A stretch of 57,390 nucleotides of DNA, counting the filler, from Stramenopiles sp. TOSAG23-2 (Eukaryota), in NCBI GenBank assembly GCA_900128395.1. It is 4 parts of 4 records of this genome, joined end to end, with 100 filler letters (N's around TTAATTAATTAA, not from the genome) between each part and the next. Parts side by side here need not be neighbours in the genome. Positions count along the whole stretch, not along the records: positions 1 to 14,309 come from LT649764.1; 3 more parts are not named here. The stretch is one strand, 5' to 3'. Shown here in pieces: positions 200 through 44,618 of the stretch (positions are counted from its first letter, which is position 1; each line of letters starts with the position of its first letter). A program made the translations under genes and the position numbers. The notes below the pieces were generated by a model. The model did no database searches. It had not been told where the DNA came from and was given only the letters and a program-made list of their open reading frames with translations.

Positions 200-3100
200 A
201 TGGATGGTGGTGCAGAAAAGAAAACAGAAGAAGAAGGAAAAGAAGATGATATTAAACTATGCAAAGAAAATGTTAAAGAATTCCTAAATATTTTTGCTAC
301 TAAAAAAGCAAATTTCTCCCATATTCTTGAAAAAAAATCGCTTGCTGCAAACTCTTTATTAAAAGGTACATGTAACCGTGCCTTTAAAAGAATGGCAGAT
401 CAAAAAATTGTAGTAGATGGTGCTAAAAATGTGGTCGAAATTAGTGATAAAAATAGCCTTTTTAAATATGAAGCACCAATCCAAGTTGGTAGTAGAAAGT
501 TTATAATGAGGTTTCGAAATAATGAAAAATCACATAAACTCGAATGTTTATGGCTCGGTAAGCCTGGTGAAAAAATCCCAGAAGATGGTGAAGAAAAATC
601 TTCCTTGATGATGCTGTTCAAACAAGGTTATCGCTCAGAAAACAGTGATATTGAGTTTCAATTGCCTGTACGTCGAAATAAAGCCTACGCAAAATCATCT
701 AAAGCTGGACGATTGACCTTTGGAGACGAACATTTATTAACCATTAATATGGGAAAGCCTTTACCTGAAATTCCAAGAGATAAATTTGATGTTCAACTTC
801 GTCATCGTTATCATCGTGACAAAGCATGGGTAGTTCTATTTTTTATATATTGGATAGTTGAAATTGGTATGGCAATTCATGCTTTCGCTAATGGTAGACC
901 TGCACGAGTTTTGTACGGTATCGATAGTCTAGGAAATCTTTGCGGTGAAAAAAGTGATATTATTGATCTTTCCACAAAAACGCACTTGTTTTATGCAGCT
1001 CCAGAGGAAACTAATGGATTGAAACTTTGTGTTGCCAATTGTCCTAGTACAAACGATACGGTTATTGAAAATTATATATTTAACCTTTTGAATCCTGGAA
1101 ATTCGACAAGTGGTGGTGCTACCATTCGATCAAATATGCCCACGGTTGTATTAGCGAATAGGTGTTTACCAACTGGAAGTGGATCGACGACAGTTTTATC
1201 CGTATCAGCAACTTTATTTGCTGATGCTGTCAATGGTTGGAAGAGTACTTTTGTTACTTGTATTGCAGCATTTTTATTAGGTTTTATATGGATGAAATTA
1301 ATGCTTAGTAAGCCAACTTTTGTTTTAAACTTTGCTTTTACTATTGCCATACTAGGACTTCTTTTATTCACAGGGGTTTTCCTTGTATCATATGCAATAG
1401 TTACACCTCCGGCAGGTATGGATAATTCAACATCATATTTAGTCGATCCTGGTGTTCAAACATTAGTTTTAGTTTTTTCATTGATTTCTTTTTGTTTTTT
1501 ACTATATATAATATATAAATCATGCCGTTTAAGAAAAGATTTTGGGAATGCATCTAAAGTTTTTGATTTGACATCAGAAGCATTACGTGATTGCAATATT
1601 GCAATTATACATGCTAATTGCTGTATTCCTACAAAACAAAATTTGACAGAAAAAACTGGGGATGGAGAAGGGAAAATAGCCGATGCATCCGATGTTGAAA
1701 TTGAAAATGCAGAAGAAGCAAAAGATACCAAAGAAGAAGGCGTAGCACCAAAGCCAAAAGCAATTAACATTCGTCCAATATTGACATTTCCAATTTATAA
1801 CTTTATTATATTAGTCTCGTTTATTGTATTATGGATGTTGGTGTTTTTACATTTAATATCTCTTGGGAATATTGAGCAAGTATGTGAATGCATAAAATCA
1901 CTGGACAATTGTATGTGCTCACGATATTTTGAATTTGATACAGGAGCAAGATGGTTTGCCATAGTCCATCTTTATGGGCTTTTTTGGGGCGTAAGCTTGA
2001 TTGTCAATGTTACCAGAGTAACAATATCAATGACAGTATCAACGTGGTATTTCTCTGAAGCAAAAGATTTGGAGGTACGAACTTTGCCACCTGAAATTGT
2101 CCGATCCTCCTATCGAAGAACATTATGGCATCATTCTGGAAGCTTATTAAAAGCTAGTTTTTATACTCCTGTTGTTGTTATTTTACGGCCATTATCATTT
2201 TTTCTCTTACAAATAAGAGATATGTTCTCTTGTGTAGGTCGAATAACATTTTGTTGCCGCGGGTGTATTCGAGTCATCTTGCTTAGTTGTTGTGGATTCC
2301 AACAACTAGCATATCTTGATATCCGTGCCGCAATGCAACAAATTGCACTGCATGGGTCATCATTTATTCGTGGTGCAACAGTCGGGACAAAATTGAAAAT
2401 GCGAAATGAAGATCGAGTCAAAGGATTGGAAAATGCTCTGAGCTTCAAACTTTTATTTGGAAAATTATCGATTTTTTGTTTTAGCTTTTTCATTGGTTGG
2501 TTATACTTTCGTGCAATTGATCAAACAGCGGTTGGATCTATTGGTGCTCCAATCATAGTTCTAGTATTGAATAGCATCGTTGCATTTGCAACGATGTCTT
2601 TATTTGTTGAGCAATATGACATGAGCATAGAAACTATTTTGCAAGACTTTTTCGAAGATTGTGAGCGTAACATGCGTTCAACAGAAGTATTTATGCCTCC
2701 AGAATTTAGAAAATTTATTGATGATTATGGTTATTACACTAGCGGAACATTTCCAAGTGATCCGACAGCTATGTATAGAAAATTATTCAATGCGAATAAA
2801 TTAGGAGTGATGCATGTGGCAACAAAAGAAGTTTTGTGTCAGTATGTCACAACATATGATGCTCAGCTAAATGATAAAACGAAGTATCCAGAGGAAAAAG
2901 AAGGGTATTATATCAAAGGTAACATTCCATTGAAACATGAATCCCAGCCAAGAAATTCGCTTGATATATATCATTTTAAATACGGTCGATTGGTAGCTGA
3001 TAATATTAATGCCCTATTCCGCATTCCTTTTACCGCAAAATCGCTTGTAGGGGAAGATGAGTCATGGACAAAAGGATTGAAAAAGATTCAATGGGATCAA

Positions 3101-4291
3101 ATTAAGCTTCCAATTCGTGGTGGCGGGTATCATAAATTACGCAAACTTGACCCATCAATGGTGGCAAAAAGAGCGCCTAATGATCCTCATTTAAATTTGA
3201 TAAAATCTGGAGAAATTATATGTTACCACAGTGACATTGAAAGAGGATTGGCTGAACAGGATTCAGAACAGCAATGTTTGGATAATGGATCAACATCTAT
3301 TCGAATTTTAGTCAATATGCGTACATTGAGAGTTGCCCGTCGTTTAATTGATGCTGAAGAAGATTCAAGTGTAGCAATTGCAACACCAGCACCTTTATCT
3401 GGAGAGGAAAAAGCAAAATATTTGGAGGACAATGGTTTTGATAATGCTGCATTTAAAAAATGGTGTGAAGAAAACGAACTTTGCATGAAGAAAGTTCCAA
3501 AATATGAGAAATTAAAACATCCGGAATTGTCATTTGCTAAAGATGCTTTCATTTTTTTACATCAGACGTATTATTTCTATGATTCAGCAAGGTCATGGGT
3601 GCCAGTCAAACCAGTGGATGTAATCAAAGGGGATATTGGTTCCTCTGGAACAATCAATAATTTATATGTTGCTATTCTTCGTTATAATGGAATTGTTGCT
3701 AGATGTTTATCTGGGGCATGGTTATGGTCGAATGATGGAACCTATACAGCGGAGGGTGTCCAGCGAGGTGCAACTGAAGGAGAAATGCTTGCCTTGGATA
3801 TGCAAAGGCGTACAATGTCAGAATTCTACTTACCGAAAGTAGGATGGATTCCAACAGATGCAACACCAACTAGGCTGAGTTACAATTTTGATCCAACTGT
3901 ACGACGAGCACGAGCAAGGATGGGAAAATACGGATGGAACAAAAATCTATCGATGACATGCCTTGCCAATTTTGGTAACGATTCTGGTTTGCTTTTGTTA
4001 AATAGTGCTGGTTTTGAAATGGGAAGGCCAAAAGTTCAAATTGGACCTGTAGGAAATGATATGGGTAAATATTCTGAAAGCTATCATACTGAGAATAGTA
4101 ACCGGCCAGATTTTAAAGATGGCAAAGGAATTTCTCTTAATAATCGAGAATTCATGTGTACTGATTTGGCTGTATCTAGTTATCAACCAGAAAAAGGAAT
4201 GAAAGATGACCTTTTCAATGCAATTGAAACACTTACACCTGTAGATCCAAATCCTGAGTATGGCAAAGTGAAATTAGCTGATCAAGGGTAG
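200..4291 (+). CDS. Choline transporter-like (CTL/SLC44) protein with C-terminal transglutaminase-like domain
   Basis: 1363-aa ORF. CTL motifs RDKAWVVLF...ANGRPARVLYGIDSLGNLCG and ETILQDFFEDCERN, with about ten hydrophobic segments. C-terminal LYVAILRYNGIVARCLSG...SEFYLPKVGWIPTDATP matches the transglutaminase-like core. Confidence 0.88.
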   Translation: MDGGAEKKTEEEGKEDDIKLCKENVKEFLNIFATKKANFSHILEKKSLAANSLLKGTCNRAFKRMADQKIVVDGAKNVVEISDKNSLFKYEAPIQVGSRKFIMRFRNNEKSHKLECLWLGKPGEKIPEDGEEKSSLMMLFKQGYRSENSDIEFQLPVRRNKAYAKSSKAGRLTFGDEHLLTINMGKPLPEIPRDKFDVQLRHRYHRDKAWVVLFFIYWIVEIGMAIHAFANGRPARVLYGIDSLGNLCGEKSDIIDLSTKTHLFYAAPEETNGLKLCVANCPSTNDTVIENYIFNLLNPGNSTSGGATIRSNMPTVVLANRCLPTGSGSTTVLSVSATLFADAVNGWKSTFVTCIAAFLLGFIWMKLMLSKPTFVLNFAFTIAILGLLLFTGVFLVSYAIVTPPAGMDNSTSYLVDPGVQTLVLVFSLISFCFLLYIIYKSCRLRKDFGNASKVFDLTSEALRDCNIAIIHANCCIPTKQNLTEKTGDGEGKIADASDVEIENAEEAKDTKEEGVAPKPKAINIRPILTFPIYNFIILVSFIVLWMLVFLHLISLGNIEQVCECIKSLDNCMCSRYFEFDTGARWFAIVHLYGLFWGVSLIVNVTRVTISMTVSTWYFSEAKDLEVRTLPPEIVRSSYRRTLWHHSGSLLKASFYTPVVVILRPLSFFLLQIRDMFSCVGRITFCCRGCIRVILLSCCGFQQLAYLDIRAAMQQIALHGSSFIRGATVGTKLKMRNEDRVKGLENALSFKLLFGKLSIFCFSFFIGWLYFRAIDQTAVGSIGAPIIVLVLNSIVAFATMSLFVEQYDMSIETILQDFFEDCERNMRSTEVFMPPEFRKFIDDYGYYTSGTFPSDPTAMYRKLFNANKLGVMHVATKEVLCQYVTTYDAQLNDKTKYPEEKEGYYIKGNIPLKHESQPRNSLDIYHFKYGRLVADNINALFRIPFTAKSLVGEDESWTKGLKKIQWDQIKLPIRGGGYHKLRKLDPSMVAKRAPNDPHLNLIKSGEIICYHSDIERGLAEQDSEQQCLDNGSTSIRILVNMRTLRVARRLIDAEEDSSVAIATPAPLSGEEKAKYLEDNGFDNAAFKKWCEENELCMKKVPKYEKLKHPELSFAKDAFIFLHQTYYFYDSARSWVPVKPVDVIKGDIGSSGTINNLYVAILRYNGIVARCLSGAWLWSNDGTYTAEGVQRGATEGEMLALDMQRRTMSEFYLPKVGWIPTDATPTRLSYNFDPTVRRARARMGKYGWNKNLSMTCLANFGNDSGLLLLNSAGFEMGRPKVQIGPVGNDMGKYSESYHTENSNRPDFKDGKGISLNNREFMCTDLAVSSYQPEKGMKDDLFNAIETLTPVDPNPEYGKVKLADQG

Positions 4292-6408: not shown

Positions 6409-6467
6409 TTAATTATACTTCTTCTTCTTTTTGGTTGCGTTTCCTTTTTTTTTTTTGCCACTACTCG

Positions 6468-6499
<32 letters not shown>

Positions 6500-9390
6500 T
6501 TGCCGTAACTAGCATCTAAAATATATTGTGCAATCTCAACATCGCTTTTTCCATATGAATCATTAACACTAAACTTGTTTTTAAATTGTGCTTTCATTGC
6601 TTTCACAAAATAAGCTGGCGCTCCACTACCTGATGTATCTGCCCGGCCTTTAAATGCATATGGCCATAAAAGCATAAGAGGTCCTTTGAATTTTTTTTTG
6701 AAAAATTTTTCTTTCGCCGGTTTTGCATTTTTATCAAATGGAACTACCCAATTCCATACATTCATCATGCAATTTAAATCCCAGCTTGGATCTTTTTTCC
6801 TTGCCTTTTTCCACCCCTTTGCATCTAGATCAATAATTTTATTTTGTGCAATTGATACAGTAACTCTATTTCGATATTTTAGTTGAAAATCTATAGCATT
6901 TATTCCACCCAAGTCACTACCTGCAATTGTTGCTTTTGCAATTCCAAGATAATCCATTAATGCAAGTAATTGAGTATGGACAGCAGATGAGTGATAATCT
7001 CCATTGCTTTTTTCACTTTCATAATAAAACGTTGGAGCTAAAATTCGTAATGGTTTTGCGTCTCCCAATGATGTAGTAGTTGCTATCTCTTTCAAAGCAT
7101 CTATGTATGGTTTATATGATTTAATAGGATCTTTTTTAAAATCATTAATGAAAATAATTGTTGTAGCTGACGGATCATTAGTCCAAAATCCATATACATC
7201 CAATTCATCTTTATCCCCATTTTTAATTGGTACAATACCGTTCCCACCATTGTCTAAGGTCAAATCATTTGCTTTAGCTTTTATTTTATCATCTGCTTTT
7301 GTTGCTTGATCTTGTTTTGCTTTTGCATCGACTTTATTTTTCACATGCGATGCTTGTACAGAAAAACGTAGTGTTTGTGTACTTTCAGAAATAGAATCAG
7401 CAGCTGCAGTTATACAACTAATTAATGCTGTCATCGACTTGCCACCAAGCCCGGGCATTAATAAATGTGTTAATGGATTGTCATAATAACTAACATGTTT
7501 CCCACGTTTACCATTATTTTCTACAAGGTTTAATACGACTCTTCCAAGGGCAGAAAGGGCAACATTTATCGCAGTCGCTTCATTAAAACGTCTCCCCGTC
7601 GCCCCAGAACGTTTATTTCGTTCACTACCTGCAAGATCTATCATATACAACGTAGTATTATTGCTTAAAATTACAATCAAAATAGCATGAGAGCGAGATG
7701 AAGCGTCATTCATATTTGTAGCACCAGAGGCACGATAACTAGCCCCATTTGCAACATCATTCAATAATTCACTAATATTATTAGTTTTATTTATTGTTGC
7801 ACCACGCACACGAGTCGTTAATACTTCCCCATTGTTATCTTTTACTTCTTCCACTTTCATGTCTATATTTGATGATGGTTTTAATAAATCTAAAAAATTG
7901 CCATTATAAAGTTGCACATATTGGTAAGATACATTTAAAGATTCATCGCTGCTGTTTAAAAGATCAAACATTAAAGATAACGATTGTGAAATTAAACCAT
8001 CTTTCGCTTCACTCGAAATACCGTTTGGTCCTTCCATGGTATATGTTTTTCCAGTACCAGTTTGTCCATATGCAAACATTGTTACGTTTTTTTTGTCATT
8101 TACCAAGGCATGTATTAATGGTGAAGCAACGCTTAGAAATACTTCATCTTGCGTTGCTTTTTCCACAAATACACGATTAAAAACATAATTACCTCTTACA
8201 ATATTTAACATGGATGGATCTTTAACATAAATACGTTGTGGTGGGGGCGTTCTTGGGAAATCTTTTACATCTTCAACTTTTATACATGATTCTGAATTTA
8301 TTTCTCGCTTTAACATTGGACGAACACGAATGAACACTTTAAAATTTTCATTTACTTTTTTACTACCTGCTTCTAATGCCGATTTTGTTGGAACTGAACT
8401 TATTGATGCATTTTTTTCTATCGGTTCTTTCCTTTTTGAATTTAAATATGATACCATGTCATTTAAAAATTCTTCTGATGGTTCCAACATGTAAAAACCT
8501 TTCTCTTTTGAAACATTTGCCAATGGTATTTCGAGGCCCATTAAATAATTCTCTGCTTTTGGGCCTCGAACTGTGCTAAAACTTCCTTCATAGCGTGTTG
8601 GCAATATCATGATTCTTTCCATCATTCCTTCCTCTTTACATATCCCGGAAAAAAAATGACCTAAATTTCCAGCTGATAACGTGTAATCATCTTTACTCCA
8701 TCCTTCACTTATTATACAAAATAAATCACACCCTTCGCTTAACATAATTTTACCTAACATGGAGTGTTCAGTAACAATAGGGTTATGAAGTACATGATGG
8801 CCACTAAACAGTTTTGGAAACCTACAATACAAACGAAAAAACGTACCAACTCCTCCACCATCAGCAATTACAGTGACATTTTCAGAAGCACCAAATGCTT
8901 TTAATATTCCTAATACAATCTCTTCGTCTATGCCAGATTTTGATGGAATAGTATCATTAGATGAGCGACCATAACCAGGAAAATCCAATCCAATTATATT
9001 GTACCCATTGTCCAATAATGTTTTACAATAATTTGAAAAAAATGCTGCACATCTGTTTTTTCCTGTCCAACTATGTAATAAAAGAGCCACTTTGTTGGAA
9101 GAAGTATTTGGCGATAGTAATGTTATAATATGTACAGTCCACGATGATGAATTTTTATCACTACATTTACAAAACCAAGACATAGCTTTTTCATTTATAA
9201 TTTTTGGAATTTTTGTATGATTTATTAAATTTGTAATTTTCTTTCCTCCATCATTGGAATTGATAAATTGTAAATCTATTTTTTCTGTCTTAATATTTAA
9301 TTGTATTGGTGCAAATGTTGGTGCTAATGTATTATTATTAGTCGTTGTGTTTTCCGTACCTTCGTTGTTAATCGAAGCAGCAGCACCCAT
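6409..9390 (-). CDS. Kinesin motor protein flanked by two alpha/beta-hydrolase-fold domains
   Basis: Kinesin motifs VFIRVRP, P-loop GQTGTGKT, switch I NDASSRSH and switch II DLAGSE (~7335-8350). N-terminal LLLHSW...GLDFPGYGRS. C-terminal LMDYLGIAKATIAGSDLGG. Starts MGAAAS. Confidence 0.9.
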
Positions 9391-13272: not shown

Positions 13273-14309
13273 TCAAATCCCACCCATCAATGCATATTTA
13301 ATTTCTAAATAATCATCCATCCCATATTTACTACCTTCACGACCAGTCCCAGATTCTTTAATACCACCAAATGGTGCCACTTCACTGGATAAAACACCTT
13401 CATTCACACCAACCATACCATATTCCAATGCTTCCGTCACACGGAAACTACGACCTAAATCTTTTGTATAAAAATATGCAGCAAGACCAGCGGATGTATC
13501 ATTTGCCAATTCAATAACTTCATTTTCTTCTTTAAAACGAATCAATGGTGCAACTGGGCCAAATGTTTCTTCATAGGAGCAACGCATTGATGGTGTGACA
13601 TCTGCTAATATAGTAGGTTTAAAGAAATTTTCCCCATTGTTAACAAGATCATCATTTGATTCAACTTGATATGCAAGCCTTGCACCTTGTTCAATTGCAT
13701 CTTTCACATGTTCCTCCACTTTTTCCACACCTCTTGAATTGATTAAAGGTCCAATAGTAACATCATCAGCTGCACCATTACCAATTTTAAATTTCCTAAC
13801 TTCATCAATTAATTTATTTAAAAATTCATCATATACTCCCTCTTGTACATATATACGATTTGCACATACACATGTTTGTCCAGCATTACGAAATTTTGAC
13901 AACAAAAGACCTTGGACAGCACTATCAAGATCTGCATCATCAAATACAATAAATGGTGCATTACCACCAGCTTCCAATGATACTTTTTTCATCGTACTAC
14001 TACATTTTTCTAACAATGTTTTTCCAACAGCAGTTGATCCAGTGAATGATAATTTACGAATTGATGGATGTGTACTTAATGCATTGCCAATTGTTGCTGC
14101 ATCACTTCGATCCCCTGTAACTACATTAAAGACACCATCTGGTATTCCAGCTCTGATACCTAATTCAGCTAATGCTAATGCGGATAATGGTGTATCTTCA
14201 CTTGGTTTACATACAATTGTACATCCAGCTGCTAATGCTGGTCCTGCTTTACGTGTAATCATTGCACTCGGAAAGTTCCATGGGGTAATCATTGCAGCTA
14301 CACCGATTC
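13273..14309 (-). CDS. ALDH5A1: Succinate-semialdehyde dehydrogenase, 5'-truncated by contig end
   Basis: ITPWNFPSAMITRK, FTGSTAVG, LEAGGNAP, FRNAGQTCVC, EETFGP, PFGGIKESG. Confidence 0.92.
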
Positions 14310-15011: not shown

Positions 15012-17090
15012 ATGACTACGTACAATCAATTGTCCTACACCAAGATCATTGACATCCTCTCTAAATGGAAAGATGAATATCCAAATTTAATTAAAATATA
15101 CAATGCACAAGATACGTTTGGTATACCATCACCTGGTACATGTGCATCTTTTTTACCTTGTAAACAATATTATTTTAGAATTACCAATGAAAATACATTA
15201 CCAGATATTTATCGACCGGAAGTATTTTTTTCCGGTGCATTACATGGCAATGAACGTGTTGGCCCAACAGCAGTTGTTGAATTTGCAAGGATATTATTAG
15301 AAAATTACAATGAACCAGATGTTAAAAAACAAAGTGCATGGTTGAAAAAATTAGTCGATACTCGTTCTATTTATATCATGCCAAGTGCAAATGCAATAGG
15401 ATATTATAAAAACACTAGAGAAGAAAATGGGATTGATCCAAATCGTGATTTTCCATATAATCAAGATCCAGATAAATGTATGAAAACAACAGCTGCACGT
15501 GCTGTGAATGAGTTATGGCGAGAACATATTTTTCAATTATCATTAACATTTCATGCAGGGGAAATAAGTCTTGATTATGAATGGGGTGCATATAATCATC
15601 CACCACCAAATGATCAATCACCAGATGAACGTGGTTTTAAACAATTAGCAGAAACAAGCAGTAAATTTGCAAATCGTTTTGGTAATGTAAAACAATACCC
15701 AACAGCTAGATTAGGTAGAGATCCATATGATGTAAATGGTGGTATGGAAGATTGGGCATATGCAGCATCATGGGAAACGGAATATATTAAACCATGCCAA
15801 CCAATCAATCATTTTAATGGATATGATATATCAAAAACAATTTATAATAATGTATCCAATCGTGCCATGAATTTTTTAGTAGAAACAAGTAATAATAAAG
15901 ATCCATCTAGTACATTGTATGGGACAAAAGAATCTGTATTTAATCCATCCGATAGAATTAATAATGGGCATTGTTCTAGAAATATTCGTTTAGCTATGAT
16001 GATGACGGAAATGGTACAACCATATATACATATAATAAATGAACCAATGTTAATTGCAAAAAGTAATGATAATAATCCTACAAATGATTTAGAATTATTA
16101 CAACATACATATGAATGGGATGTTGGTGGTGCATTTATGGTTGATCAAACTGATTTAATATGGTCGTATTGGCCGAAAGATAAATTCAATGGAAAATCAT
16201 GTCATTGCTATACAAAAAATCACGAGAAATTACATGGGCAACGACCTGGATATGGATTAGATCATTCCAAATTAAAATTCAATATTGCAAATTCATTTAA
16301 AAATTCACCAACTAGATGGATTAATCAACCCGATTATAAAATTAAAAATCGTTTTTTAAAACAATTTAATGGTGGAAAACTTCCACTTGGTACGGATATT
16401 ACATTAAATGATGGTCAAGAACTTGTCGTATTTATACGTGCAAAAGTAGATTCAACATGGGGCCATGAGAAAATATCAAATGCATTTCCAAAAGTAAATC
16501 CACAATCTCATGTTGTACAAAATCGTATAAATCGTAGTTGGTATGGTAAATCAGATGATGGATGCCATGGTATACAAGGACGTGAATGGGTATATTCCGT
16601 ACCGATTTGTATTAGTAATGATGGTGGTGGTGGTGGTGGCGGTGGTATTGATAGTGATGAAAAATTTGCTTGCAACGCATTTTTAAATGATTTTCAAGCC
16701 TCGCAAAATAGAATACAATTAAAATGTCCTGATCAACTATCAAATAATATTAATAATCAACATATTATTTTTGGTATTGATCAAGGTTTATTTATTTTTT
16801 TGGTAATTGTCTTTGGTTTATTATCATTAGCATTTGCATTGTATTGTAAATATTTTCGTCGTTATGGTTTGTTGAAATCATGTATACGTAATAGAAAATT
16901 AGATTCATATATGAAATCAACTACGAACGATGGTTATTTTGATGATGTTCATGTTAATAATGGTGATCGAACAATGATGGTAATCGAATCGTATGAAGAT
17001 CAACATATTGATGTGAATGATGTGATTGTAAGTGACGAAGAGGATGGTGTTGATGGTGGTGATGGTGGGATAGAAATGACAGAGAAGTGA
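15012..17090 (+). CDS. M14 zinc carboxypeptidase with C-terminal transmembrane helix
   Basis: GALHGNE zinc motif, NGIDPNRDFP, TFHAG, GGMEDWAY, and TM segment LFIFLVIVFGLLSLAFALYC. First ATG at 15012; the true 5' end is uncertain. Confidence 0.88.
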   Translation: MTTYNQLSYTKIIDILSKWKDEYPNLIKIYNAQDTFGIPSPGTCASFLPCKQYYFRITNENTLPDIYRPEVFFSGALHGNERVGPTAVVEFARILLENYNEPDVKKQSAWLKKLVDTRSIYIMPSANAIGYYKNTREENGIDPNRDFPYNQDPDKCMKTTAARAVNELWREHIFQLSLTFHAGEISLDYEWGAYNHPPPNDQSPDERGFKQLAETSSKFANRFGNVKQYPTARLGRDPYDVNGGMEDWAYAASWETEYIKPCQPINHFNGYDISKTIYNNVSNRAMNFLVETSNNKDPSSTLYGTKESVFNPSDRINNGHCSRNIRLAMMMTEMVQPYIHIINEPMLIAKSNDNNPTNDLELLQHTYEWDVGGAFMVDQTDLIWSYWPKDKFNGKSCHCYTKNHEKLHGQRPGYGLDHSKLKFNIANSFKNSPTRWINQPDYKIKNRFLKQFNGGKLPLGTDITLNDGQELVVFIRAKVDSTWGHEKISNAFPKVNPQSHVVQNRINRSWYGKSDDGCHGIQGREWVYSVPICISNDGGGGGGGGIDSDEKFACNAFLNDFQASQNRIQLKCPDQLSNNINNQHIIFGIDQGLFIFLVIVFGLLSLAFALYCKYFRRYGLLKSCIRNRKLDSYMKSTTNDGYFDDVHVNNGDRTMMVIESYEDQHIDVNDVIVSDEEDGVDGGDGGIEMTEK

Positions 17091-21596: not shown

Positions 21597-23211
21597 AGTT
21601 AAAAGACTGCTGGACTGCGGCAACAAGGCAACAACACTGAAGGACTGGAAAATGAAGTTTTGAAATTTTTCATTTTAGCGTGTGGTGTAATATTTATTTT
21701 ATAATTTAGTAAAAATTTAAAAATGTATGATATACATTTTTACAATTAAAAATAATTTAAAAAACTAATTTTTTATACCCCCGTATTTTCGTAAAATTTC
21801 GTACGAATGCCACAGTTACTAACGGTACCCACCACTATGAACAACAAACTTAAATACGACTGCACTGTGATCTGTGATATGCATGTATAATTACATAATA
21901 TTTCTGATTTGTCTAAAAATCAATAATACAACCGTTCTACATCATCGATACAAACCATAATACCATGCCGACGACCATTTTTGCATTGAAAATAACGTTT
22001 TCCTTTAATCATACCATCGTTTTTACCACCACGATTTGAATCTAATTCAATACCAACAAAAATTTTATCATTATTACGTTTATAATGAACCGTACCAATG
22101 TATTTAACAATACCTTTTAAACGATAACCGTGGGTACGTACATAGTCCCCTACTTTAATATCATTGTACGCATTATATGTTGTTGTTTTTTCTTCTTCCT
22201 CATGTTTTTCTTCTATTTTCTTCATCATTAAATTATTATTATTATTATTGATTACATTGTTTATATCGTTTACTAATTGTTTACTTGTTTCAATTATTTT
22301 CAATGTTTTTTCTTTTTGAATATACAGTTAACTTGCCTGAATTATATTTAGGTGCTGTTGAAGATGAGGTGAAATACTTGGGTATTACATCTGCACTTAC
22401 CAGTTCATCATCATCATCAGGAGAAGGATCAATGAATGAACCAAAACGAAAAAAAACAAAAAGAAGTCCATAGAGTTAAAAGACTGCTGGACTGCGGCAA
22501 CAAGGCAACAACACTGAAGGACTGGAAAATGAAGTTTTGAAATTTTTCATTTTAGCGTGTGGTGTAATATTTATTTTATAATTTAGTAAAAATTTAAAAA
22601 TGTATGATATACATTTTTACAATTAAAAATAATTTAAAAAACTAATTTTTTATACCCCCGTATTTTCGTAAAATTTCGTACGAATGCCACAGTTACTAAC
22701 GGTACCCACCACTATGAACAACAAACTTAAATACGACTGCACTGTGATCTGTGATATGCATGTATAATTACATAATATTTCTGATTTGTCTAAAAATCAA
22801 TAATACAACCGTTCTACATCATCGATACAAACCATAATACCATGCCGACGACCATTTTTGCATTGAAAATAACGTTTTCCTTTAATCATACCATCGTTTT
22901 TACCACCACGATTTGAATCTAATTCAATACCAACAAAAATTTTATCATTATTACGTTTATAATGAACCGTACCAATGTATTTAACGATACCTTTTAAACG
23001 ATAACCGTGGGTACGAACGTAGTCCCCTACTTTAATATCATTGTATGCATTATATGTTGTTGTTGTATCCTTTTGTTTCTTTTCTTCTTCCTCATGTTTT
23101 TCTTCTATTTTCTTCATCATTAAATTATTATTATTATTATTGATTACATTGTTTATATCGTTTACTAATTGTTTACTTGTTTCAATTATTTTCAATGTTT
23201 TTTCTTTTTGA
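21441..23211. repeat. Tandem duplication (879 and 894 bp) of two convergent gene 3' ends
   Basis: 21441-22319 versus 22318-23211, GA microhomology at the junction. By eye the copies differ by 4 substitutions and one 15-nt indel. Confidence 0.95.
21920..22319 (-). pseudogene. 5'-less duplicate of the CAP-Gly gene 3' half
   Basis: Encodes the second CAP-Gly domain of 22797-23768 but starts at the duplication junction; the track start is TTG. Confidence 0.75.
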
Positions 23212-23768
23212 TATTTTTTTATCATATTATTATTATTATTATTGTCATTTTCTTTTATATTATTTTTCATTGTTTTTGACATTTCTTGTTGTTTTTCGTC
23301 ATCTTTAATTTTCATCTTCTTCTTCTTATTATTATTATCTACCATCATCATCATCTTCTTCATCATATTGTTATTACTATTTTGTTTCAGTTTTTTTTCA
23401 TTTAATAATTTCATTTTATTATGTATTTCTTTGATTGTTTTTATTGGTGATTGTTTTTTTATTTTTTCAACATCTTTAACACGTGCTAACATACCATAAT
23501 TATTTCTACAAGTGAAATATGTTTTACCTTTAACCGTACCATTGTTTCTACCATATGGACCATCGCATTCAATACCAACATATACTTTTTTAATATCTTT
23601 ACAATAATGAACACGTCCAATAAATCGTACTGTACCTTTAATATGTTTATGTTTTGTTTTGACACGATCACCTAAACCAATTCTATCATCATCATCTTCC
23701 TCTTCACATTTGATCACGGAATATAAATTTTTTAACCCACCATTAAATTCAACAATTAATCCACTCAT
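22797..23768 (-). CDS. Protein with two CAP-Gly domains
   Basis: GTVRFIG...VGIECDGPYGRNNGTVKGKTYFTC and GIVKYIG...VGIELDSNRGGKNDGMIKGKRYFQC, separated by a K/N/M-rich linker. Confidence 0.9.
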   Translation of the reverse strand: MSGLIVEFNGGLKNLYSVIKCEEEDDDDRIGLGDRVKTKHKHIKGTVRFIGRVHYCKDIKKVYVGIECDGPYGRNNGTVKGKTYFTCRNNYGMLARVKDVEKIKKQSPIKTIKEIHNKMKLLNEKKLKQNSNNNMMKKMMMMVDNNNKKKKMKIKDDEKQQEMSKTMKNNIKENDNNNNNNMIKKYQKEKTLKIIETSKQLVNDINNVINNNNNNLMMKKIEEKHEEEEKKQKDTTTTYNAYNDIKVGDYVRTHGYRLKGIVKYIGTVHYKRNNDKIFVGIELDSNRGGKNDGMIKGKRYFQCKNGRRHGIMVCIDDVERLYY

Positions 23769-34206: not shown

Positions 34207-35685
34207 CTAAATTAGAAAATGCGGCAATATTTTTTGTTTTATACGATTCAAAACAAGGTGGTAATAACGAGGGCCAAGGTGTATGCCATCTTGCACATAG
34301 TATTCATTGATATCCTTGAAAACCATTGATCTGTAGAACACATCGTCAATGCAAATAACACCTTTTACACTACAAAAAGCTCTTATGCTCAAAATATTTC
34401 TTTTATGTACCAATGAATTGGCATGCATACAAGCACGGCTATTTTCCTGCCTAAACCAAAGTTTCGATGTCATTGCTGGTGACTCTACGTATACAAAAAT
34501 AATACCCTTTTGGCTCAAATTTTGTAGGACCTTTCTGGTATTACGTAATAATGTATGAAACTCAGTTAAATTGCAATATAAAATATAAGCATGCCCTGTG
34601 TTAAAGATGACAATGGGGTTTGTTTTTTCTCCAGGTTGATTGTTTAGTTCAAGATGATTCAGCTGGCTCATTAGACGGACATTAACGCGCCCGCCACCAC
34701 TTACTATACGATAATTCCGCGCTACACCACTACAATTCAAAGTAATATCATGATGGTATTTTCCATATGTGTTGTTATGTGTGCAGTTACTAGATAGACT
34801 GCTGTGAACCCTGTCATAGAGACGTTTCATATTACTATCACCAAAAGCCCAAATGGGTGTTGCGGCTAATTTTGAATTAAGCAAAGGGTTTGGTGACTGC
34901 CAATCTCTTTTATATGCATCATCACCACGTGTTACTTTTACACTTTCAGTCCACACACACATTAAGCTATTGGTGAAAAGATCCTTGCATTCAGAAGCAT
35001 TAAGCTCCCTAGTATTTTCATACGTGAAATTATATGGCTTCCATATCTCACGCAATGTTACTGTATACGTACCAGAAACAAAGCTAGCAAAATTTATTGA
35101 CCCCCCAGCATTACACGGTACGCAGCGAGATACATCAGACACAATATCGGAACCAGGCTCCCCTTTTAAAATTGCGCATAGCTCACAATGTTGACTTTTA
35201 CTTTTATTTGTATAATAACTAATTATCAACGATGGCACCAATTGTGAATTTCTTTGATTCACCAGCTTTCTATAGCAGCCTGGATTATTAACCAGTGAGC
35301 CTGTGGTAATCATGTCATAGTTTATCGATTTATTAACCAGTGAGCCTGTGGTAAGCATATCATAGTTTATCGAAGTCTCTATACGTAAAGGCAATGTTGT
35401 TGTTGAAAAATTTGTTTTTGAGAGTACTAAAATTGCCGATATAATGAAAATCAACGTAAAAATACTCCGACTTCTTTGCCGATGCAACTTTTGTTCCCAA
35501 CATTTCCATGCAAAATTATCCTCTTCTGACTTCCCTGTCTCATCTCTAGCTTGTTTACCACGTTGAATAGCCTGTATCTTAATCGCAGCTTCTTCTTGTT
35601 TTACCTTCTCATCCCTCCCTTGTTTTCCACGCTGTACGGCTTGTATCTTAATCGCCGCGTTGACTTCCTTCTGGGTATCGCTCAT
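34207..35685 (-). CDS. IQ-motif, single-TM, SGNH/GDS-DxxH esterase or acyltransferase-like protein
   Basis: Two AAIKIQAxQRGKQxR motifs, TM segment IFTLIFIISAILVL, then AFGDSN, IFNTGH and DGIH. Internal 45-bp tandem repeat at 35285-35373. Confidence 0.78.
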   Translation of the reverse strand: MSDTQKEVNAAIKIQAVQRGKQGRDEKVKQEEAAIKIQAIQRGKQARDETGKSEEDNFAWKCWEQKLHRQRSRSIFTLIFIISAILVLSKTNFSTTTLPLRIETSINYDMLTTGSLVNKSINYDMITTGSLVNNPGCYRKLVNQRNSQLVPSLIISYYTNKSKSQHCELCAILKGEPGSDIVSDVSRCVPCNAGGSINFASFVSGTYTVTLREIWKPYNFTYENTRELNASECKDLFTNSLMCVWTESVKVTRGDDAYKRDWQSPNPLLNSKLAATPIWAFGDSNMKRLYDRVHSSLSSNCTHNNTYGKYHHDITLNCSGVARNYRIVSGGGRVNVRLMSQLNHLELNNQPGEKTNPIVIFNTGHAYILYCNLTEFHTLLRNTRKVLQNLSQKGIIFVYVESPAMTSKLWFRQENSRACMHANSLVHKRNILSIRAFCSVKGVICIDDVFYRSMVFKDINEYYVQDGIHLGPRYYHLVLNRIKQKILPHFLI

Positions 35686-43065: not shown

Positions 43066-43165
43066 NNNNNNNNNNNNNNNNNNNNNNNNNNNNNNNNNNN
43101 NNNNNNNNNTTAATTAATTAANNNNNNNNNNNNNNNNNNNNNNNNNNNNNNNNNNNNNNNNNNNN
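43066..43165. other. Artificial contig linker
   Basis: 44 N + TTAATTAATTAA + 44 N. Confidence 0.97.
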
Positions 43166-44618
43166 AAATGAAATTTGCACCACATACTTTAAATTCACGC
43201 GATGTTAAACATTCAATAGTACCAGCAAATGCCATTTCTAAATGTCCTCTGTCGCATTCCGGTGCAGTATCTGGATGGCGTTTAAATACACGTTGGAAAC
43301 TTTCTTTAAATACACTTTGTCCGAAACTATCTGCTAATACGGATAAACCTCCCGTCTTCTCCACACAACGTTTCATTTCCAATAAACCAACTTGATCTAA
43401 GGAACATGCAAAGATATCAACTACATGAGAATTACGAACGCAACGATCTGCAAGGCCTTCATAATGTTGACATGCATCTTTGAACATTGGTGCTAATCCT
43501 TTCAATAAATCATTATGCGATCGCATTGTTTTACTCAATTCTTTTGAAACAATCGCTCCAGGACCATGTGTACATGGACCACCAACAAAGGTCATGATTC
43601 GTGCACCTATTTTTTTTGTTTTATAAAATTATTATATATGTTAGAAAATTATTATATATATATATATATATATACGGTAATGAAACAATAATTTTATATG
43701 TGTGGAGGTCGGATGAACGAAATCTCATTTTTGGGAGGATTTATGATATATATATATATATATATACTTACCACTATTAGGTACAGCTGTTTCCAATAAT
43801 CCAACTGCAACAGCTAATGCAGAACCAGTTGCTCTTGAAGGTCTTAAACCTTCACCTACATGCCATGGATCACGTGCTAAATCATCTAATACAGATTCCA
43901 ATGAAAAACCACATTCCGATACAGGCACTAAAAATCGTCCTATTGCTTGATCATTACCTGTACTTGGTTGTTGACCTGCCATGCCACCTGGTCTAATACC
44001 TAGCAACGCACTAACTTTATTAGCATCTAATGCTTTCTCTCCACGGAATACAAATGATTTTGGACATTCCGTATAACCTAACTCATGCAATTGCACATTT
44101 GTTCCAAACGTCACTAAACCGACCAATGCTTCATCTGGTAATAAATTTAAACATTGTTGTAGTGAATCTTTCAACTCTTCCAATTGATCTTCACTTAAAC
44201 AAGTATCTACAACAAATAAGAAAACAGGTGGACCTGCACGTCGGTTTGGCAACGCATATTCTAAAGTTGTGTATTGCGGTATTAACTCTGCTGGCAAATT
44301 CGTTTCACTAAGTAATTCTGCGTAATGTGGTGGGAAATGATTTCTTGTCAAGCAAAATGGACAAGTCCATAACTTTGAATGAAAATCTACTTGACACCAT
44401 GGATTTAATATTGCCCCACAGTTTGGATTTTTACAACGTATTGGATCATAATCTACTGCAGCAATCGAATGTTGTGGTGCGCGATTCTTTAAAGGCGTTA
44501 AAATACATCCTACTGGAACTACAATACGCGTCGCTTCGATACGTGATGATGGCCACATATTCCAACTAAATCGTACACCATCTCGTTCCTCCGCTGCCAT
44601 AAAATCCCATCCTGACAT
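43166..44618 (-). CDS. SEC23: COPII coat protein Sec23 (2 exons visible, 3'-truncated)
   Basis: EERDGVRFSWNMWPSSR, zinc finger and FLFVVDTC. Exon 44618-43772, intron GTAAGT...ATAG (43771-43607), exon from 43606 restoring GARIMTFVGGPCT. Confidence 0.96.

What the first reader, a model, noticed from the sequence alone, without database searches (positions are those of the whole stretch)
6409..9390. Putatively myristoylated, stalk-less kinesin sandwiched between two alpha/beta-hydrolase-fold domains
Seen: one intron-free ORF with MGAAAS (MGxxxS myristoylation consensus), hydrolase-like domain 1 (LLLHSW, GLDFPGYGRS, elbow IADGGG), a complete kinesin motor, a short linker with no long coiled coil, hydrolase-like domain 2 (elbow AGSDLGG), then poly-Ser and a polybasic tail. 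Known: GxSxG and GxDxG are the nucleophile elbows of serine hydrolases and of epoxide hydrolases/dehalogenases. Domain 1 therefore has Gly at the nucleophile position; domain 2 keeps Asp but shows no obvious HGF motif or catalytic His. I know no classical kinesin family with this layout. Inference: a membrane-tethered monomeric motor whose hydrolase folds act as enzyme or small-molecule/lipid sensors.
Basis: partly seen in the sequence, partly recalled or inferred. Interest (0 to 1): 0.85.

Follow-up and report, generated by a model that had tools for sequence, protein, structure and literature searches.

The report
Stalk-less kinesin flanked by two pseudo-hydrolase domains
This is a real gene from a marine protist for a microtubule motor that has two enzyme-like but probably inactive domains and likely lipid-anchor signals where other kinesins have a stalk, and it belongs to a conserved kinesin family that seems never to have been described.

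Summary
Window 6409-9390 (-) is one uninterrupted 993-aa ORF. It has a full kinesin motor with intact ATPase motifs. AlphaFold2 models of both flanks match alpha/beta-hydrolases over their whole length: VIA Z 14.0 for domain 1 and 17.9 for domain 2.

Domain 1 has Gly at the nucleophile position. Domain 2 keeps an epoxide-hydrolase-type Asp that is present in 56 of 56 relatives. It has no His anywhere downstream of that Asp and reads NDF where HGF is expected. Both domains are therefore probably not canonical enzymes.

The protein is not a one-off. Of the 50 closest motors in public data, 47 carry these flanks; 0 of the next 70 do. These motors form one clade with 100/100 support. Members include Symbiodinium, Gymnodinium and Cymbomonas.

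The MGxxxS start recurs in two distant subclades. The polybasic tail is specific to the window's subclade.

I found no paper on this layout (seven searches). The family's signature motifs are absent from the 45-genome kinesin catalogue alignment.

Membrane anchoring, oligomeric state, motility and any ligand remain inferences.

The parts
6409..9390 (-). Whole gene: 993-aa intron-free ORF plus stop codon
   Evidence: In-frame TGA 6 nt upstream of the ATG. Orthologues are collinear over the full length. An orthologue on metagenome locus L002 is also a single ORF of 1009 aa.
9370..9390 (-). N-terminal MGAAASI (residues 1-7): putative N-myristoylation signal (Gly2, Ser6)
   Evidence: Sequence. MGA[AG]AS is found in 5 of 5 full-length members of the window's subclade, and MGSGAS in 4 Symbiodiniaceae-type members. 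Lipidation itself is not shown.
8389..9210 (-). Domain 1 (residues 61-334): alpha/beta-hydrolase fold, degenerate active site
   Evidence: Pfam Abhydrolase_1 25.9 bits. AF2 model pLDDT 72.9, pTM 0.79. VIA Z 14.0 to 3bdi (rmsd 3.5, 179 aligned) and 13.8 to MhpC; 987 of 1000 chains at Z>=8. The Atlas's nearest clusters are ABHD14B-like (score 0.92).
8851..8868 (-). Elbow 1, IADGGG (residues 175-180): Gly178 at the nucleophile position
   Evidence: Follows strand 5 of the model. G178 aligns on D826 of domain 2 (hhalign). Across the family this position is G 20, C 7, A 3, S 1 of 31.
8344..8388 (-). Linker 1 (residues 335-349) with the conserved PTKSAL motif
   Evidence: P334-L339 are invariant in the 4-sequence alignment.
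7321..8343 (-). Kinesin motor (residues 350-690) with P-loop GQTGTGKT, switch I SSRSH and switch II DLAGSE, followed by an ASHVKNKV neck-linker-like segment
   Evidence: Pfam PF00225 E 3e-72. Best solved relatives are KIF3B (1.4e-44), Giardia kinesin-2, OSM-3 and KIF11. Motifs read.
7249..7320 (-). Short charged linker (residues 691-714): no coiled-coil stalk
   Evidence: Sequence. Heptad scan found 0 windows.
6502..7248 (-). Domain 2 (residues 715-963): epoxide-hydrolase-like alpha/beta-hydrolase fold, basic (pI 9.3; cap pI 10.1)
   Evidence: AF2 model pLDDT 91, pTM 0.90. VIA Z 17.9 to 3qit_D and 16.7 to an epoxide hydrolase; 1000 of 1000 chains at Z>=8. A family profile hits epoxide hydrolases in the PDB at E 2e-8. 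pI values.
6904..6924 (-). Elbow 2, AGSDLGG (residues 823-829): Asp826 at the nucleophile position
   Evidence: Aligned on GFDWGA / GHDWGG of epoxide hydrolases. Asp is present in 56 of 56 family sequences that have a residue there.
6409..6501 (-). Tail (residues 964-993): poly-Ser run, then a polybasic stretch (10 Lys/Arg, no acidic residue)
   Evidence: Lys-rich tails occur in P0001-P0004 and P0058 but not in the Symbiodiniaceae-type members. The poly-Ser length differs from a 98 %-identical contig.

Best explanation
The gene encodes a member of an undescribed but conserved kinesin family of marine protists. In this family a catalytically competent motor head sits between two alpha/beta-hydrolase-fold domains. 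The usual coiled-coil stalk and tail are missing.

Shown: the architecture, the folds, intact ATPase motifs, and conservation across a monophyletic group of motors.

Inferred:
(1) Both hydrolase folds are non-canonical and probably pseudo-enzymes. Domain 1 lacks the nucleophile and the His. Domain 2 keeps an invariant epoxide-hydrolase-type Asp but has Tyr where the His loop should be and NDF instead of HGF. They would then act as binding or regulatory modules for cargo, a ligand or self-association, not as hydrolases.
(2) The protein is fixed directly to an acidic membrane by an N-terminal myristate (MGAAAS), together with the basic domain 2 cap and the polybasic C-terminal tail.
(3) The ASHVKNKV segment after helix alpha-6 resembles the neck linker of plus-end-directed kinesins. 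The head would therefore pull its membrane toward microtubule plus ends, or hold membrane and cortical or flagellar microtubules together. Many lipid-anchored heads would work as a team, much as single-headed myosin-I or membrane-clustered KIF1A do.
For: Gene and architecture:
- Single ORF.
- Collinear orthologues at 58-99 % identity. By region, P0003 and P0004 are 45-46 % identical in residues 1-345 (which include domain 1), 70-73 % in the motor and 54-57 % in domain 2, so the flanks are under constraint.

Folds:
- Domain 2 model pLDDT 91; Foldseek gives at least 500 hits, and every listed row is an alpha/beta-hydrolase; VIA Z up to 17.9.
- Domain 1 model pLDDT 72.9; VIA Z 12.5-14 over model residues 1-261. 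The listed matches include NDRG1, which I recall as non-catalytic.

Active sites:
- D826 aligns on the sEH and bacterial epoxide-hydrolase nucleophile and is present in 56 of 56 sequences.
- The only His residues in domain 2 (H800, H805) lie upstream of D826.
- The loop after strand 8 reads S-Y-G-K-S. Family-wide that position is Y 30, H 8, F 7, A 2, W 1 of 48.
- Domain 1 has Gly178 at the elbow and P-S where G-H would be expected.

Motor: P-loop, switch I and switch II were found in 35 of 35 family members checked.

Family:
- 47 of the 50 best motor hits carry domain 1 or domain 2 by my own HMMs; 0 of the next 70 do.
- The motors are one side of a branch. SH-aLRT is 99 with 77 rows. UFBoot/SH-aLRT is 100/100 with 65 rows, after I dropped 12 long or near-duplicate rows.
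- Full three-domain proteins occur in transcriptome assemblies (P0071, P0088, P0099, P0100). P0071 and P0088 are listed as complete or 'comp' ORFs.

Membrane signals:
- 9 of 35 members start MG[AS][AG]AS. These fall in two distant subclades.
- Domain 2 is basic across the family: median pI 8.87, minimum 7.79, n = 42.

Expression hint: contigs from RNA libraries X2 and X3 (cDNA) and X5 (oligo-dT) lie on 6508-7250 and 7731-8196 at >=95 % identity. No joint was found.
Against: - No experiment or structure prediction here addresses lipidation, membrane binding, motility, direction or oligomeric state.
- The myristoylation motif is absent from most subclades (26 of 35 checked), so it cannot be the family's general mechanism.
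- The polybasic tail is confined to the window's subclade. It could equally bind the acidic tubulin tails.
- The invariance of D826 is hard to explain for a purely structural pseudo-enzyme. It leaves room for unusual chemistry.
- The microtubule-binding L12/alpha-5 motif reads HVSYYDNPLT instead of the usual HIPYRDSKLT, which is kept in the basal members. Microtubule affinity or motility may therefore be altered.
- The domain 1 model is only of moderate confidence (the other four models have pLDDT 51-63).
- The tree's outgroup holds only kinesin-2, a KIF4 and unnamed kinesins. Placement against kinesin-1 to -20 is not settled.
Confidence: 0.55

Rival explanations
1. The hydrolase folds, most likely domain 2, replace the coiled coil as a dimerisation module. 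The protein would then be a two-headed, processive kinesin and not a monomer. This is compatible with membrane anchoring.
For: There is no coiled coil, yet domain 2 is kept in every family member that is complete at its C-terminus. Many of the hydrolases matched are described as dimers or tetramers in their entry titles (MhpC homotetramer, DhmeA dimer, DpaA tetramer). In one subclade domain 1 is replaced by a second, degenerate motor domain, which suggests selection for two heads per molecule.
Against: Nothing here tests self-association. The tandem-motor subclade can also be read the opposite way: a cis duplication would be needed precisely because the single-motor proteins do not dimerise.
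Confidence: 0.3
2. Domain 2 is chemically active in a non-canonical way. With the Asp nucleophile kept and the water-activating His replaced by Tyr or Phe, it could be alkylated once by an epoxide or alkyl-halide-like lipid or metabolite and stay covalently attached. This is the principle of the engineered HaloTag (dehalogenase His-to-Phe; recalled, not tested). The motor would thus load a cargo or sense a metabolite covalently.
For: Asp is present in 56 of 56 sequences. The His position is Y, F or W in 38 of 48. The elbow is G-R-D-W-G in 29 of 56 members, as in epoxide hydrolases and dehalogenases. An aromatic residue (Y 29, F 10, W 8) is conserved in the cap at the position of W860.
Against: The HGxP oxyanion motif is lost in this protein (NDF), and the residue after the Asp is Leu, not Trp. 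The pair of cap tyrosines that activates epoxides was not identified. No pocket analysis was possible. An invariant Asp can also be structural or bind a partner.
Confidence: 0.1
3. It is a non-translocating kinesin. It would act as a static ATP-gated tether between membrane and microtubules, or as a regulator of microtubule dynamics, as internal-motor kinesin-13 or immotile KIF7 do.
For: The motor is internal in the polypeptide. The L12/alpha-5 microtubule-binding motif is altered (HVSYYDNPLT). A family-specific, invariant loop motif F-P-R-x-PPPQRI lies in the loop-2 region, which kinesin-8 and kinesin-13 use on tubulin (the role of loop 2 is recalled).
Against: The kinesin-13 signatures I recall (KVD finger, KEC in alpha-4) are not in the sequence, which reads ALGRVV where KEC would be. 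The neck-linker-like ASHVKNKV is typical of translocating N-type kinesins. All ATPase motifs are intact.
Confidence: 0.2
4. It is an artefact: three neighbouring genes (hydrolase, kinesin, hydrolase) merged by assembly or by reading through.
For: None found. One near-identical metagenome contig (L001) carries frameshifts in this gene.
Against: It is one ORF without stops. The same order of parts is seen in dozens of independent clusters from genomes, metagenomes and transcriptomes. Domain 2 is almost never found alone: most 'stand-alone' hits begin with the kinesin neck ASHVKNKV and are fragments.
Confidence: 0.02

Closest known systems
Kinesin-2 (KIF3A/B, OSM-3, Giardia kinesin-2) and kinesin-5 (KIF11/Eg5) motor domains
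   Same: These are the best-scoring solved relatives (E 1.4e-44 to 1e-42), with about 35-37 % identity to named KIF3 proteins. They share the P-loop, switch I and switch II motifs and a C-terminal neck-linker-like segment.
   Different: Scores against kinesin-2, -5, -1 and -4 are flat (142-156 bits), so none is a home family. The motors branch apart from KIF3A/B and KIF4 with 100/100 support. There is no coiled-coil stalk, and hydrolase folds sit on both sides.
Soluble epoxide hydrolase C-terminal domain (EPHX2), bacterial epoxide hydrolases and haloalkane or fluoroacetate dehalogenases
   Same: Alpha/beta-hydrolase fold with a GxDxG elbow. The domain 2 family profile aligns its Asp on their nucleophile (E 2e-8 to 3e-8). 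VIA Z is 16.7 to a plant epoxide hydrolase and 16.0 to a fluoroacetate dehalogenase.
   Different: The HGxP motif reads NDFK. There is no His downstream of the Asp. The cap is short and Lys-rich. The domain is found fused to the C-terminus of a kinesin.
Non-catalytic alpha/beta-hydrolase-fold proteins (NDRG1/2/3) and the small ABHD14B/CIB-like hydrolases
   Same: The fold is retained. NDRG1 (Z 12.8) and the CIB-like 3bdi (Z 14.0) are among the domain 1 matches; 3bdi (Z 17.2) and NDRG2 (Z 15.4) are among the domain 2 matches. The Atlas's nearest clusters for domain 1 are ABHD14B-like. That NDRG proteins lack the catalytic triad is recalled, not tested.
   Different: No sequence-level family relationship was shown. 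Those proteins are stand-alone and are not fused to a motor.
Lipid-binding motors: kinesin-3 KIF1A (PH domain) and KIF16B (PX domain), and single-headed myosin-I (recalled analogy)
   Same: The proposed working principle is the same: a motor attached directly to membrane lipids, with force produced by many heads on one membrane.
   Different: The attachment proposed here is myristate plus basic patches, not a PH, PX or TH1 domain. There is no homology outside the kinesin head. Nothing was tested.

Membership tests
Kinesin superfamily (PF00225) | Full-length motor domain match | tested here: met
   PF00225 E 3e-72, profile positions 1-326 of 327. 166 PDB kinesin sequences at E<=0.01.
Kinesin superfamily (PF00225) | P-loop GxxxxGK[ST], switch I SSRSH and switch II DxxGSE | tested here: met
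   GQTGTGKT, NDASSRSH and DLAGSERN.
Kinesin superfamily (PF00225) | Canonical L12/alpha-5 microtubule-binding motif H[IV]PYR[DN]SKLT (recalled consensus) | tested here: inconclusive
   Reads HVSYYDNPLT. Basal family members keep HIPYRDSxLT. The effect on binding is unknown.
Kinesin-2 | Motor groups with KIF3/OSM-3 in a tree | tested here: not met
   ABH-kinesins (35 rows) are separated from KIF3A/B, KIF4 and others (30 rows) with 100/100 support. Identity to KIF3 proteins is only 35-37 %.
Kinesin-2 | Coiled-coil stalk after the neck | tested here: not met
   About 33 residues separate the motor and domain 2. 0 heptad windows were found (the scan is crude).
Kinesin-13 (internal motor) | KVD loop-2 finger and KEC motif in alpha-4 (recalled signatures) | tested here: not met
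   Neither string is in the sequence. The alpha-4 region reads SALGRVVLNL.
Kinesin-17 to -20 and groups X1-X14 of the 45-genome catalogue (PMC2867816) | Motor groups with catalogued members | tested here: inconclusive
   Only a motif search was possible. PPPQR(I), (Q)ASHVKN(K), SHVKNK, NMNDASSRSH and DNPLT have 0 occurrences in the paper's motor alignment file, which holds 1328 SSRSH strings. The paper's family table (XLS) and tree (PDF) could not be read, and no tree with those sequences was built.
Alpha/beta-hydrolase fold superfamily (domain 1) | Fold | tested here: met
   VIA Z 14.0 (rmsd 3.5, 179 aligned) spanning model residues 7-260. 987 of 1000 chains at Z>=8. Model pLDDT is only 72.9.
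Alpha/beta-hydrolase fold superfamily (domain 1) | Nucleophile (Ser/Cys/Asp) at the elbow, and a His after strand 8 | tested here: not met
   Gly178 is at the elbow. P304-S305 follow the last core strand.
Alpha/beta-hydrolase fold superfamily (domain 2) | Fold | tested here: met
   pLDDT 91, pTM 0.90. VIA Z 17.9 (rmsd 2.7, 183 aligned). 1000 of 1000 chains at Z>=8.
Epoxide hydrolase / haloalkane dehalogenase group (domain 2) | Asp nucleophile in a sm-x-D-x-sm elbow | tested here: met
   GSDLG is aligned on GHDWG / GFDWG. Asp in 56 of 56.
Epoxide hydrolase / haloalkane dehalogenase group (domain 2) | HGxP oxyanion motif after strand 3 | tested here: not met
   Reads I-N-D-F-K-K-D-P. In the family table only P0104 reads HGF there; most members read HDF, GDL, GGL, HYY, PDS or NGF.
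Epoxide hydrolase / haloalkane dehalogenase group (domain 2) | Catalytic His after strand 8, with an acid partner | tested here: not met
   No His lies anywhere C-terminal to D826. The loop after strand 8 (residues 940-944 in the model) reads S-Y-G-K-S.
Epoxide hydrolase / haloalkane dehalogenase group (domain 2) | Two cap tyrosines (epoxide hydrolases) or halide-binding Trp/Asn (dehalogenases) | not tested
Only one conserved cap aromatic was noted (W860; Y 29, F 10, W 8 in the family).
N-myristoylated proteins | Met-Gly start, small uncharged residue at position 3, Ser/Thr/small residue at position 6, no Pro at position 7 (recalled consensus) | tested here: met
   M-G-A-A-A-S-I. Conserved in 9 of 35 family members, in two subclades.
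N-myristoylated proteins | Myristate actually attached | not testable with these tools
   Needs metabolic labelling or mass spectrometry.

The most novel reading that the evidence does not exclude
These proteins form a new kinesin family in which alpha/beta-hydrolase folds have replaced both stalk and tail. Its universally conserved domain 2 would be a natural 'self-labelling' module. It has an epoxide-hydrolase or dehalogenase scaffold that keeps the Asp nucleophile but has lost the His that releases the covalent intermediate. The motor would then become covalently, or at least very tightly, loaded with a lipid or metabolite. With the N-terminal myristate, this would give a lipid-anchored, single-headed microtubule motor: a kinesin counterpart of myosin-I.
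Probability: 0.08. Interest if true: 0.9.

Novelty: new variant of a known kind. Interest (0 to 1): 0.6.

Why it matters
Kinesins are normally described as a motor plus a coiled-coil stalk plus a cargo-binding tail, and the families are defined on that picture. Here a conserved clade of motors from ecologically important marine protists does without a stalk. The clade includes coral-symbiont dinoflagellates and a prasinophyte alga. Its motors carry two enzyme-derived domains and, in two subclades, a lipidation signal.

If the inferences hold, this is a new way to couple a microtubule motor to membranes, and a new example of pseudo-enzymes recruited as motor accessories. The invariant Asp without its His gives a precise, cheap biochemical question: does it trap a ligand?

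The family also shows that the kinesin catalogue built from 45 genomes in 2010 is incomplete for the plankton.

Tried and rejected
- Dimer test. Complex prediction with two copies of neck plus domain 2 (alignment A5) was never accepted because the queue was full. Oligomeric state was therefore not tested.
- RNA across the junctions. Only assembled contigs were available. The motor-domain 2 junction (about 7245-7341) is bridged only by a 209-base contig of run X1, whose RNA status is a guess. No single contig bridged the domain 1-motor junction (about 8340-8436). Nothing lay on 9125-9390. This neither supports nor contradicts a single transcript.
- Stand-alone relatives of domain 1. A word-based search at near length gave only a 182-aa fragment of the same gene.
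- Own genome: none is held.
- Earlier findings of this scan: nothing relevant.
- Viral contigs: no relative of domain 2.
- Synteny. The neighbour of the L002 orthologue is unrelated to the window's neighbour. The neighbouring genes here (an EcKL-type kinase and a pseudouridine synthase) suggest no functional link.
- Selection. Comparison with the 98 %-identical contig L001 gave only 6 synonymous and 6 non-synonymous differences, too few for any inference.
- His position. hhalign of domain 2 against the canonical hydrolase P0029 aligned the elbow (D826 on the Ser of GHSMG) but was unreliable in the C-terminal half. I therefore did not use it to place the His.
- Internal duplication. Domains 1 and 2 are only 13 % identical (hhalign probability 74 %), so nothing points to a recent duplication.
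- Rfam and tRNA scans of the window found nothing.
- Literature. Searches returned no paper about a kinesin fused to hydrolase folds or a myristoylated kinesin. I judged the returned papers from the search listings only. The 2006 kinesin phylogeny paper was not held under the id I tried.
- Giant-virus origin. Rejected because the window carries typical nuclear genes (Sec23/24, presenilin, protein disulfide isomerase, P-type ATPase) and shows signs of introns.
Full report
**1. The observation**

Window 6409-9390 on the minus strand is a single 993-aa ORF. An in-frame TGA lies two codons upstream of the ATG, so the frame cannot extend further without an intron.

Pfam finds a complete kinesin motor at residues 355-682 (E 3e-72). 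It finds an Abhydrolase_1 match at residues 103-149 that only just passes its cut-off (25.9 against 25.8 bits).

The residues are fully accounted for:
- N-terminal 60 residues
- domain 1: residues 61-334
- 15-residue linker
- motor: residues 350-690
- 24-residue charged linker
- domain 2: residues 715-963
- 30-residue Ser/Lys tail

A crude heptad scan found no coiled-coil-like 28-residue window.

**2. Context**

The window is AT-rich (GC 0.27-0.41). Of 23 long ORFs, 18 match Pfam families. These are typical of a eukaryotic nucleus (Sec23/24, presenilin, CBP80-like MIF4G, protein disulfide isomerase, P-type ATPase). Several relate to cilia or microtubules (Tubby, CAP-Gly, M14 carboxypeptidase, IQ proteins). 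Split or N-terminally truncated ORFs indicate some introns.

No whole genome is held for this window. There is no Rfam or tRNA hit in the window. The flanking genes (an EcKL-type kinase, convergent; a pseudouridine synthase, divergent) suggest no link. The neighbour is not conserved next to an orthologue.

**3. The flanks are alpha/beta-hydrolase folds**

Domain 2 was folded with 18 relatives. The model has pLDDT 91 and pTM 0.90.
- Foldseek against the PDB returned at least 500 hits at E<=0.001. Every listed row is an alpha/beta-hydrolase.
- VIA-align gave Z 17.9 (3qit_D, rmsd 2.7, 183 aligned), 16.7 (a plant epoxide hydrolase) and 16.0 (a fluoroacetate dehalogenase). All 1000 chains aligned reached Z>=8.

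Domain 1 was folded with 7 relatives. The model has pLDDT 72.9 and pTM 0.79; the other four models were worse.
- Foldseek aligned only the first 133-172 columns to hydrolases.
- VIA-align spanned model residues 1-261 with Z 12.5-14.0. The matches include 3bdi (CIB-like hydrolase), MhpC and NDRG1. 987 of 1000 chains reached Z>=8.

Language-model features point the same way: 0.92 for domain 1 (ABHD14B-like clusters) and 0.96 for domain 2.

The two domains are only 13 % identical to each other (hhalign probability 74 %, E 2.8e-5). In that alignment G178 falls on D826.

**4. Active sites**

A profile of domain 2 sequences hits epoxide hydrolases first in the PDB: 5bov at 2.3e-8 and human soluble epoxide hydrolase at 3e-8. 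The elbow G-x-D-x-G aligns on their GFDWGA / GHDWGG, and the family's g-d-v-k (here I-N-D-F) aligns on their HGFP.

- D826 is present in all 56 family sequences that have a residue there.
- The only His residues of domain 2 are H800 and H805, both upstream of D826. The order nucleophile-acid-His is universal in this fold (established knowledge), so a canonical triad is impossible.
- The loop after the last core strand (model strand at residues 940-944) reads S-Y-G-K-S.
- Across the family that Tyr position is Y 30, H 8, F 7, A 2, W 1 of 48.

In domain 1 the elbow position is Gly178. Family-wide it is G 20, C 7, A 3, S 1 of 31. The position where His is expected is Ser (S 28, H 2 and one each of C, T, N; 33 in all).

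Neither domain of this protein can be a canonical hydrolase.

**5. The motor**

The P-loop, switch I and switch II are intact here and in all 35 family members inspected. The segment after alpha-6 (ASHVKNKV) resembles the neck linker of N-type, plus-end-directed kinesins. That comparison is recalled, so direction is an inference.

The L12/alpha-5 motif is unusual (HVSYYDNPLT). Basal family members keep HIPYRDSxLT. A conserved F-P-R-x-PPPQRI motif lies early in the motor.

Against solved structures the scores are flat across kinesin-2, -5, -1 and -4 (142-156 bits). This is what an orphan family would give.

**6. It is a family**

An exhaustive HMMER search with domain 2 found only 24 proteins at E<=0.001 among 1.84 billion representatives.
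- 8 of the 17 that I scanned carry a kinesin motor.
- Most short hits begin with the kinesin neck, so they are fragments.

Searching with the motor gave 5175 kinesins at E<=1e-30 among 8000 scored candidates. I then scanned the hits with my own HMMs of the two flanks.
- 47 of the 50 best motor hits carry domain 1 and/or domain 2. The exceptions are P0094, P0102 and P0107.
- None of the next 70 carries either domain.

In trees of the motor domain alone, the flank-bearing proteins are one side of a branch.
- Quick tree: SH-aLRT 99. It used 77 rows, chosen as the motors covering at least 300 HMM positions with cluster duplicates removed.
- Careful tree: 100/100 with 65 rows, after I dropped 12 long or near-duplicate rows.

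The other side of the branch holds only KIF3A/B, a KIF4 and unnamed kinesins. This shows a distinct clade. It does not give the clade's place among all kinesin families.

Named members are Symbiodinium natans, S. necroappetens (auto-named 'KIF18A'), a 'Skav' model, Gymnodinium smaydae and Cymbomonas tetramitiformis. The rest come from marine metagenomes and transcriptome assemblies. Several three-domain members come from transcriptome assemblies, and P0071 and P0088 are marked as complete ORFs.

An orthologue on metagenome locus L002 is again a single ORF of 1009 aa.

**7. Membrane signals**

MGAAAS / MGAGAS begins all 5 full-length members of the window's subclade. MGSGAS begins 4 Symbiodiniaceae-type members, and a fifth has it after a probable false start. 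The other 25 members checked lack it.

The Lys-rich C-terminal tail is confined to the window's subclade.

Domain 2 is basic throughout the family (median pI 8.87, minimum 7.79, n = 42). Domain 1 is mildly acidic.

Myristate plus a basic surface is a well-known two-signal membrane anchor (recalled). The basic parts could instead bind tubulin tails.

**8. Expression**

Contigs from RNA libraries lie on the gene at 95-100 % identity with no joints: X2 and X3 (metatranscriptomic cDNA) on 6508-7250, and X5 (oligo-dT) on 6899-7053 and 7731-8196. X1 (RNA by guess only) covers 6508-9101 in eight pieces. This is a hint of expression in marine plankton. It is not proof of a single transcript.

**9. Is it catalogued?**

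Seven full-text searches gave no paper on a kinesin with hydrolase-fold domains or on a myristoylated kinesin. I judged those from the listings only.

For the 45-genome kinesin catalogue (PMC2867816) I read passages and section 5. It defines 17 families and groups X1-X14. The word 'hydrolase' does not occur in its main text.

Its motor alignment supplement contains none of the family's signature strings: PPPQR(I), (Q)ASHVKN(K), SHVKNK, NMNDASSRSH and DNPLT all gave 0 hits. Generic motifs occur about 1300 times in the same file. The paper's family table (XLS) and tree (PDF) could not be read.

So the family seems not to have been sampled in that catalogue. A distant tie to one of its families is not excluded.

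**10. Verdict**

The gene is a member of a conserved, undescribed kinesin clade with an ABH-motor-ABH layout. The hydrolase folds are most likely non-catalytic modules. A lipid anchor is plausible in this subclade.

Oligomeric state, direction, membrane binding and any ligand are open. The planned dimer prediction could not be run.

I rate this a new variant of a known kind, with interest 0.6.

Noticed in passing
Proteins P0072, P0078, P0079, P0080, P0082, P0083, P0084 and P0091 (Cymbomonas tetramitiformis); no window coordinates: One subclade of the family lacks domain 1. In its place is a second, N-terminal kinesin-like domain that has a P-loop and switch I, shows no canonical DLAGSE, and is covered only to about HMM position 258 of 353. 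The full motor and domain 2 follow. P0083 and P0084 add N-terminal EF-hands.
   Followed up: partly
Proteins P0099-P0106 and P0109 (basal branch of the family): These members have a G-Q-C-M-G elbow in domain 1, which could be a Cys nucleophile. In domain 2 they have H-Y-Y or H-G-F plus G-F-D-W-G. Pfam recognises both of their hydrolase domains well (up to 95 bits). The ancestral flanks may have been active enzymes.
   Followed up: partly
window 6409-6507 and locus L001: The poly-Ser run differs in length between the window and near-identical sequences: P0002 is shorter, and L001 has a 15-nt deletion there. Contig L001 also has a 1-nt deletion that breaks the frame at gene position 1264, and a 2-nt gap in the A-rich Lys tail. 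This is either strain variation or contig errors.
   Followed up: partly
window 200-4291 (+): A 1363-aa ORF combines a plasma-membrane choline-transporter-like domain (PF04515, E 3e-43) with a C-terminal transglutaminase-core domain (PF01841, E 1.5e-7). This pairing looks unusual.
   Followed up: no
window 43110-44618 (-) and 13273-14292 (-): Sec23/24 is split into two adjacent ORFs that continue the same Pfam profile (profile positions 3-137 and 137-241). The aldehyde dehydrogenase ORF starts at profile position 132. Both indicate introns, or frameshifts, in an otherwise intron-poor genome.
   Followed up: no
window 15012-17090, 22797-23768, 34207-35685, 48069-49367, 49574-52111: Several genes related to microtubules or cilia lie in the same 57-kb window: an M14 carboxypeptidase, a double CAP-Gly protein, two IQ-motif proteins and a Tubby-domain protein. 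The organism is probably flagellated.
   Followed up: no
Protein P0094 (866 aa, metagenome): A family-like kinesin motor (50 % identity) is followed by FtsJ/Spb1 rRNA methyltransferase domains instead of domain 2. This is probably two genes merged by gene calling.
   Followed up: no
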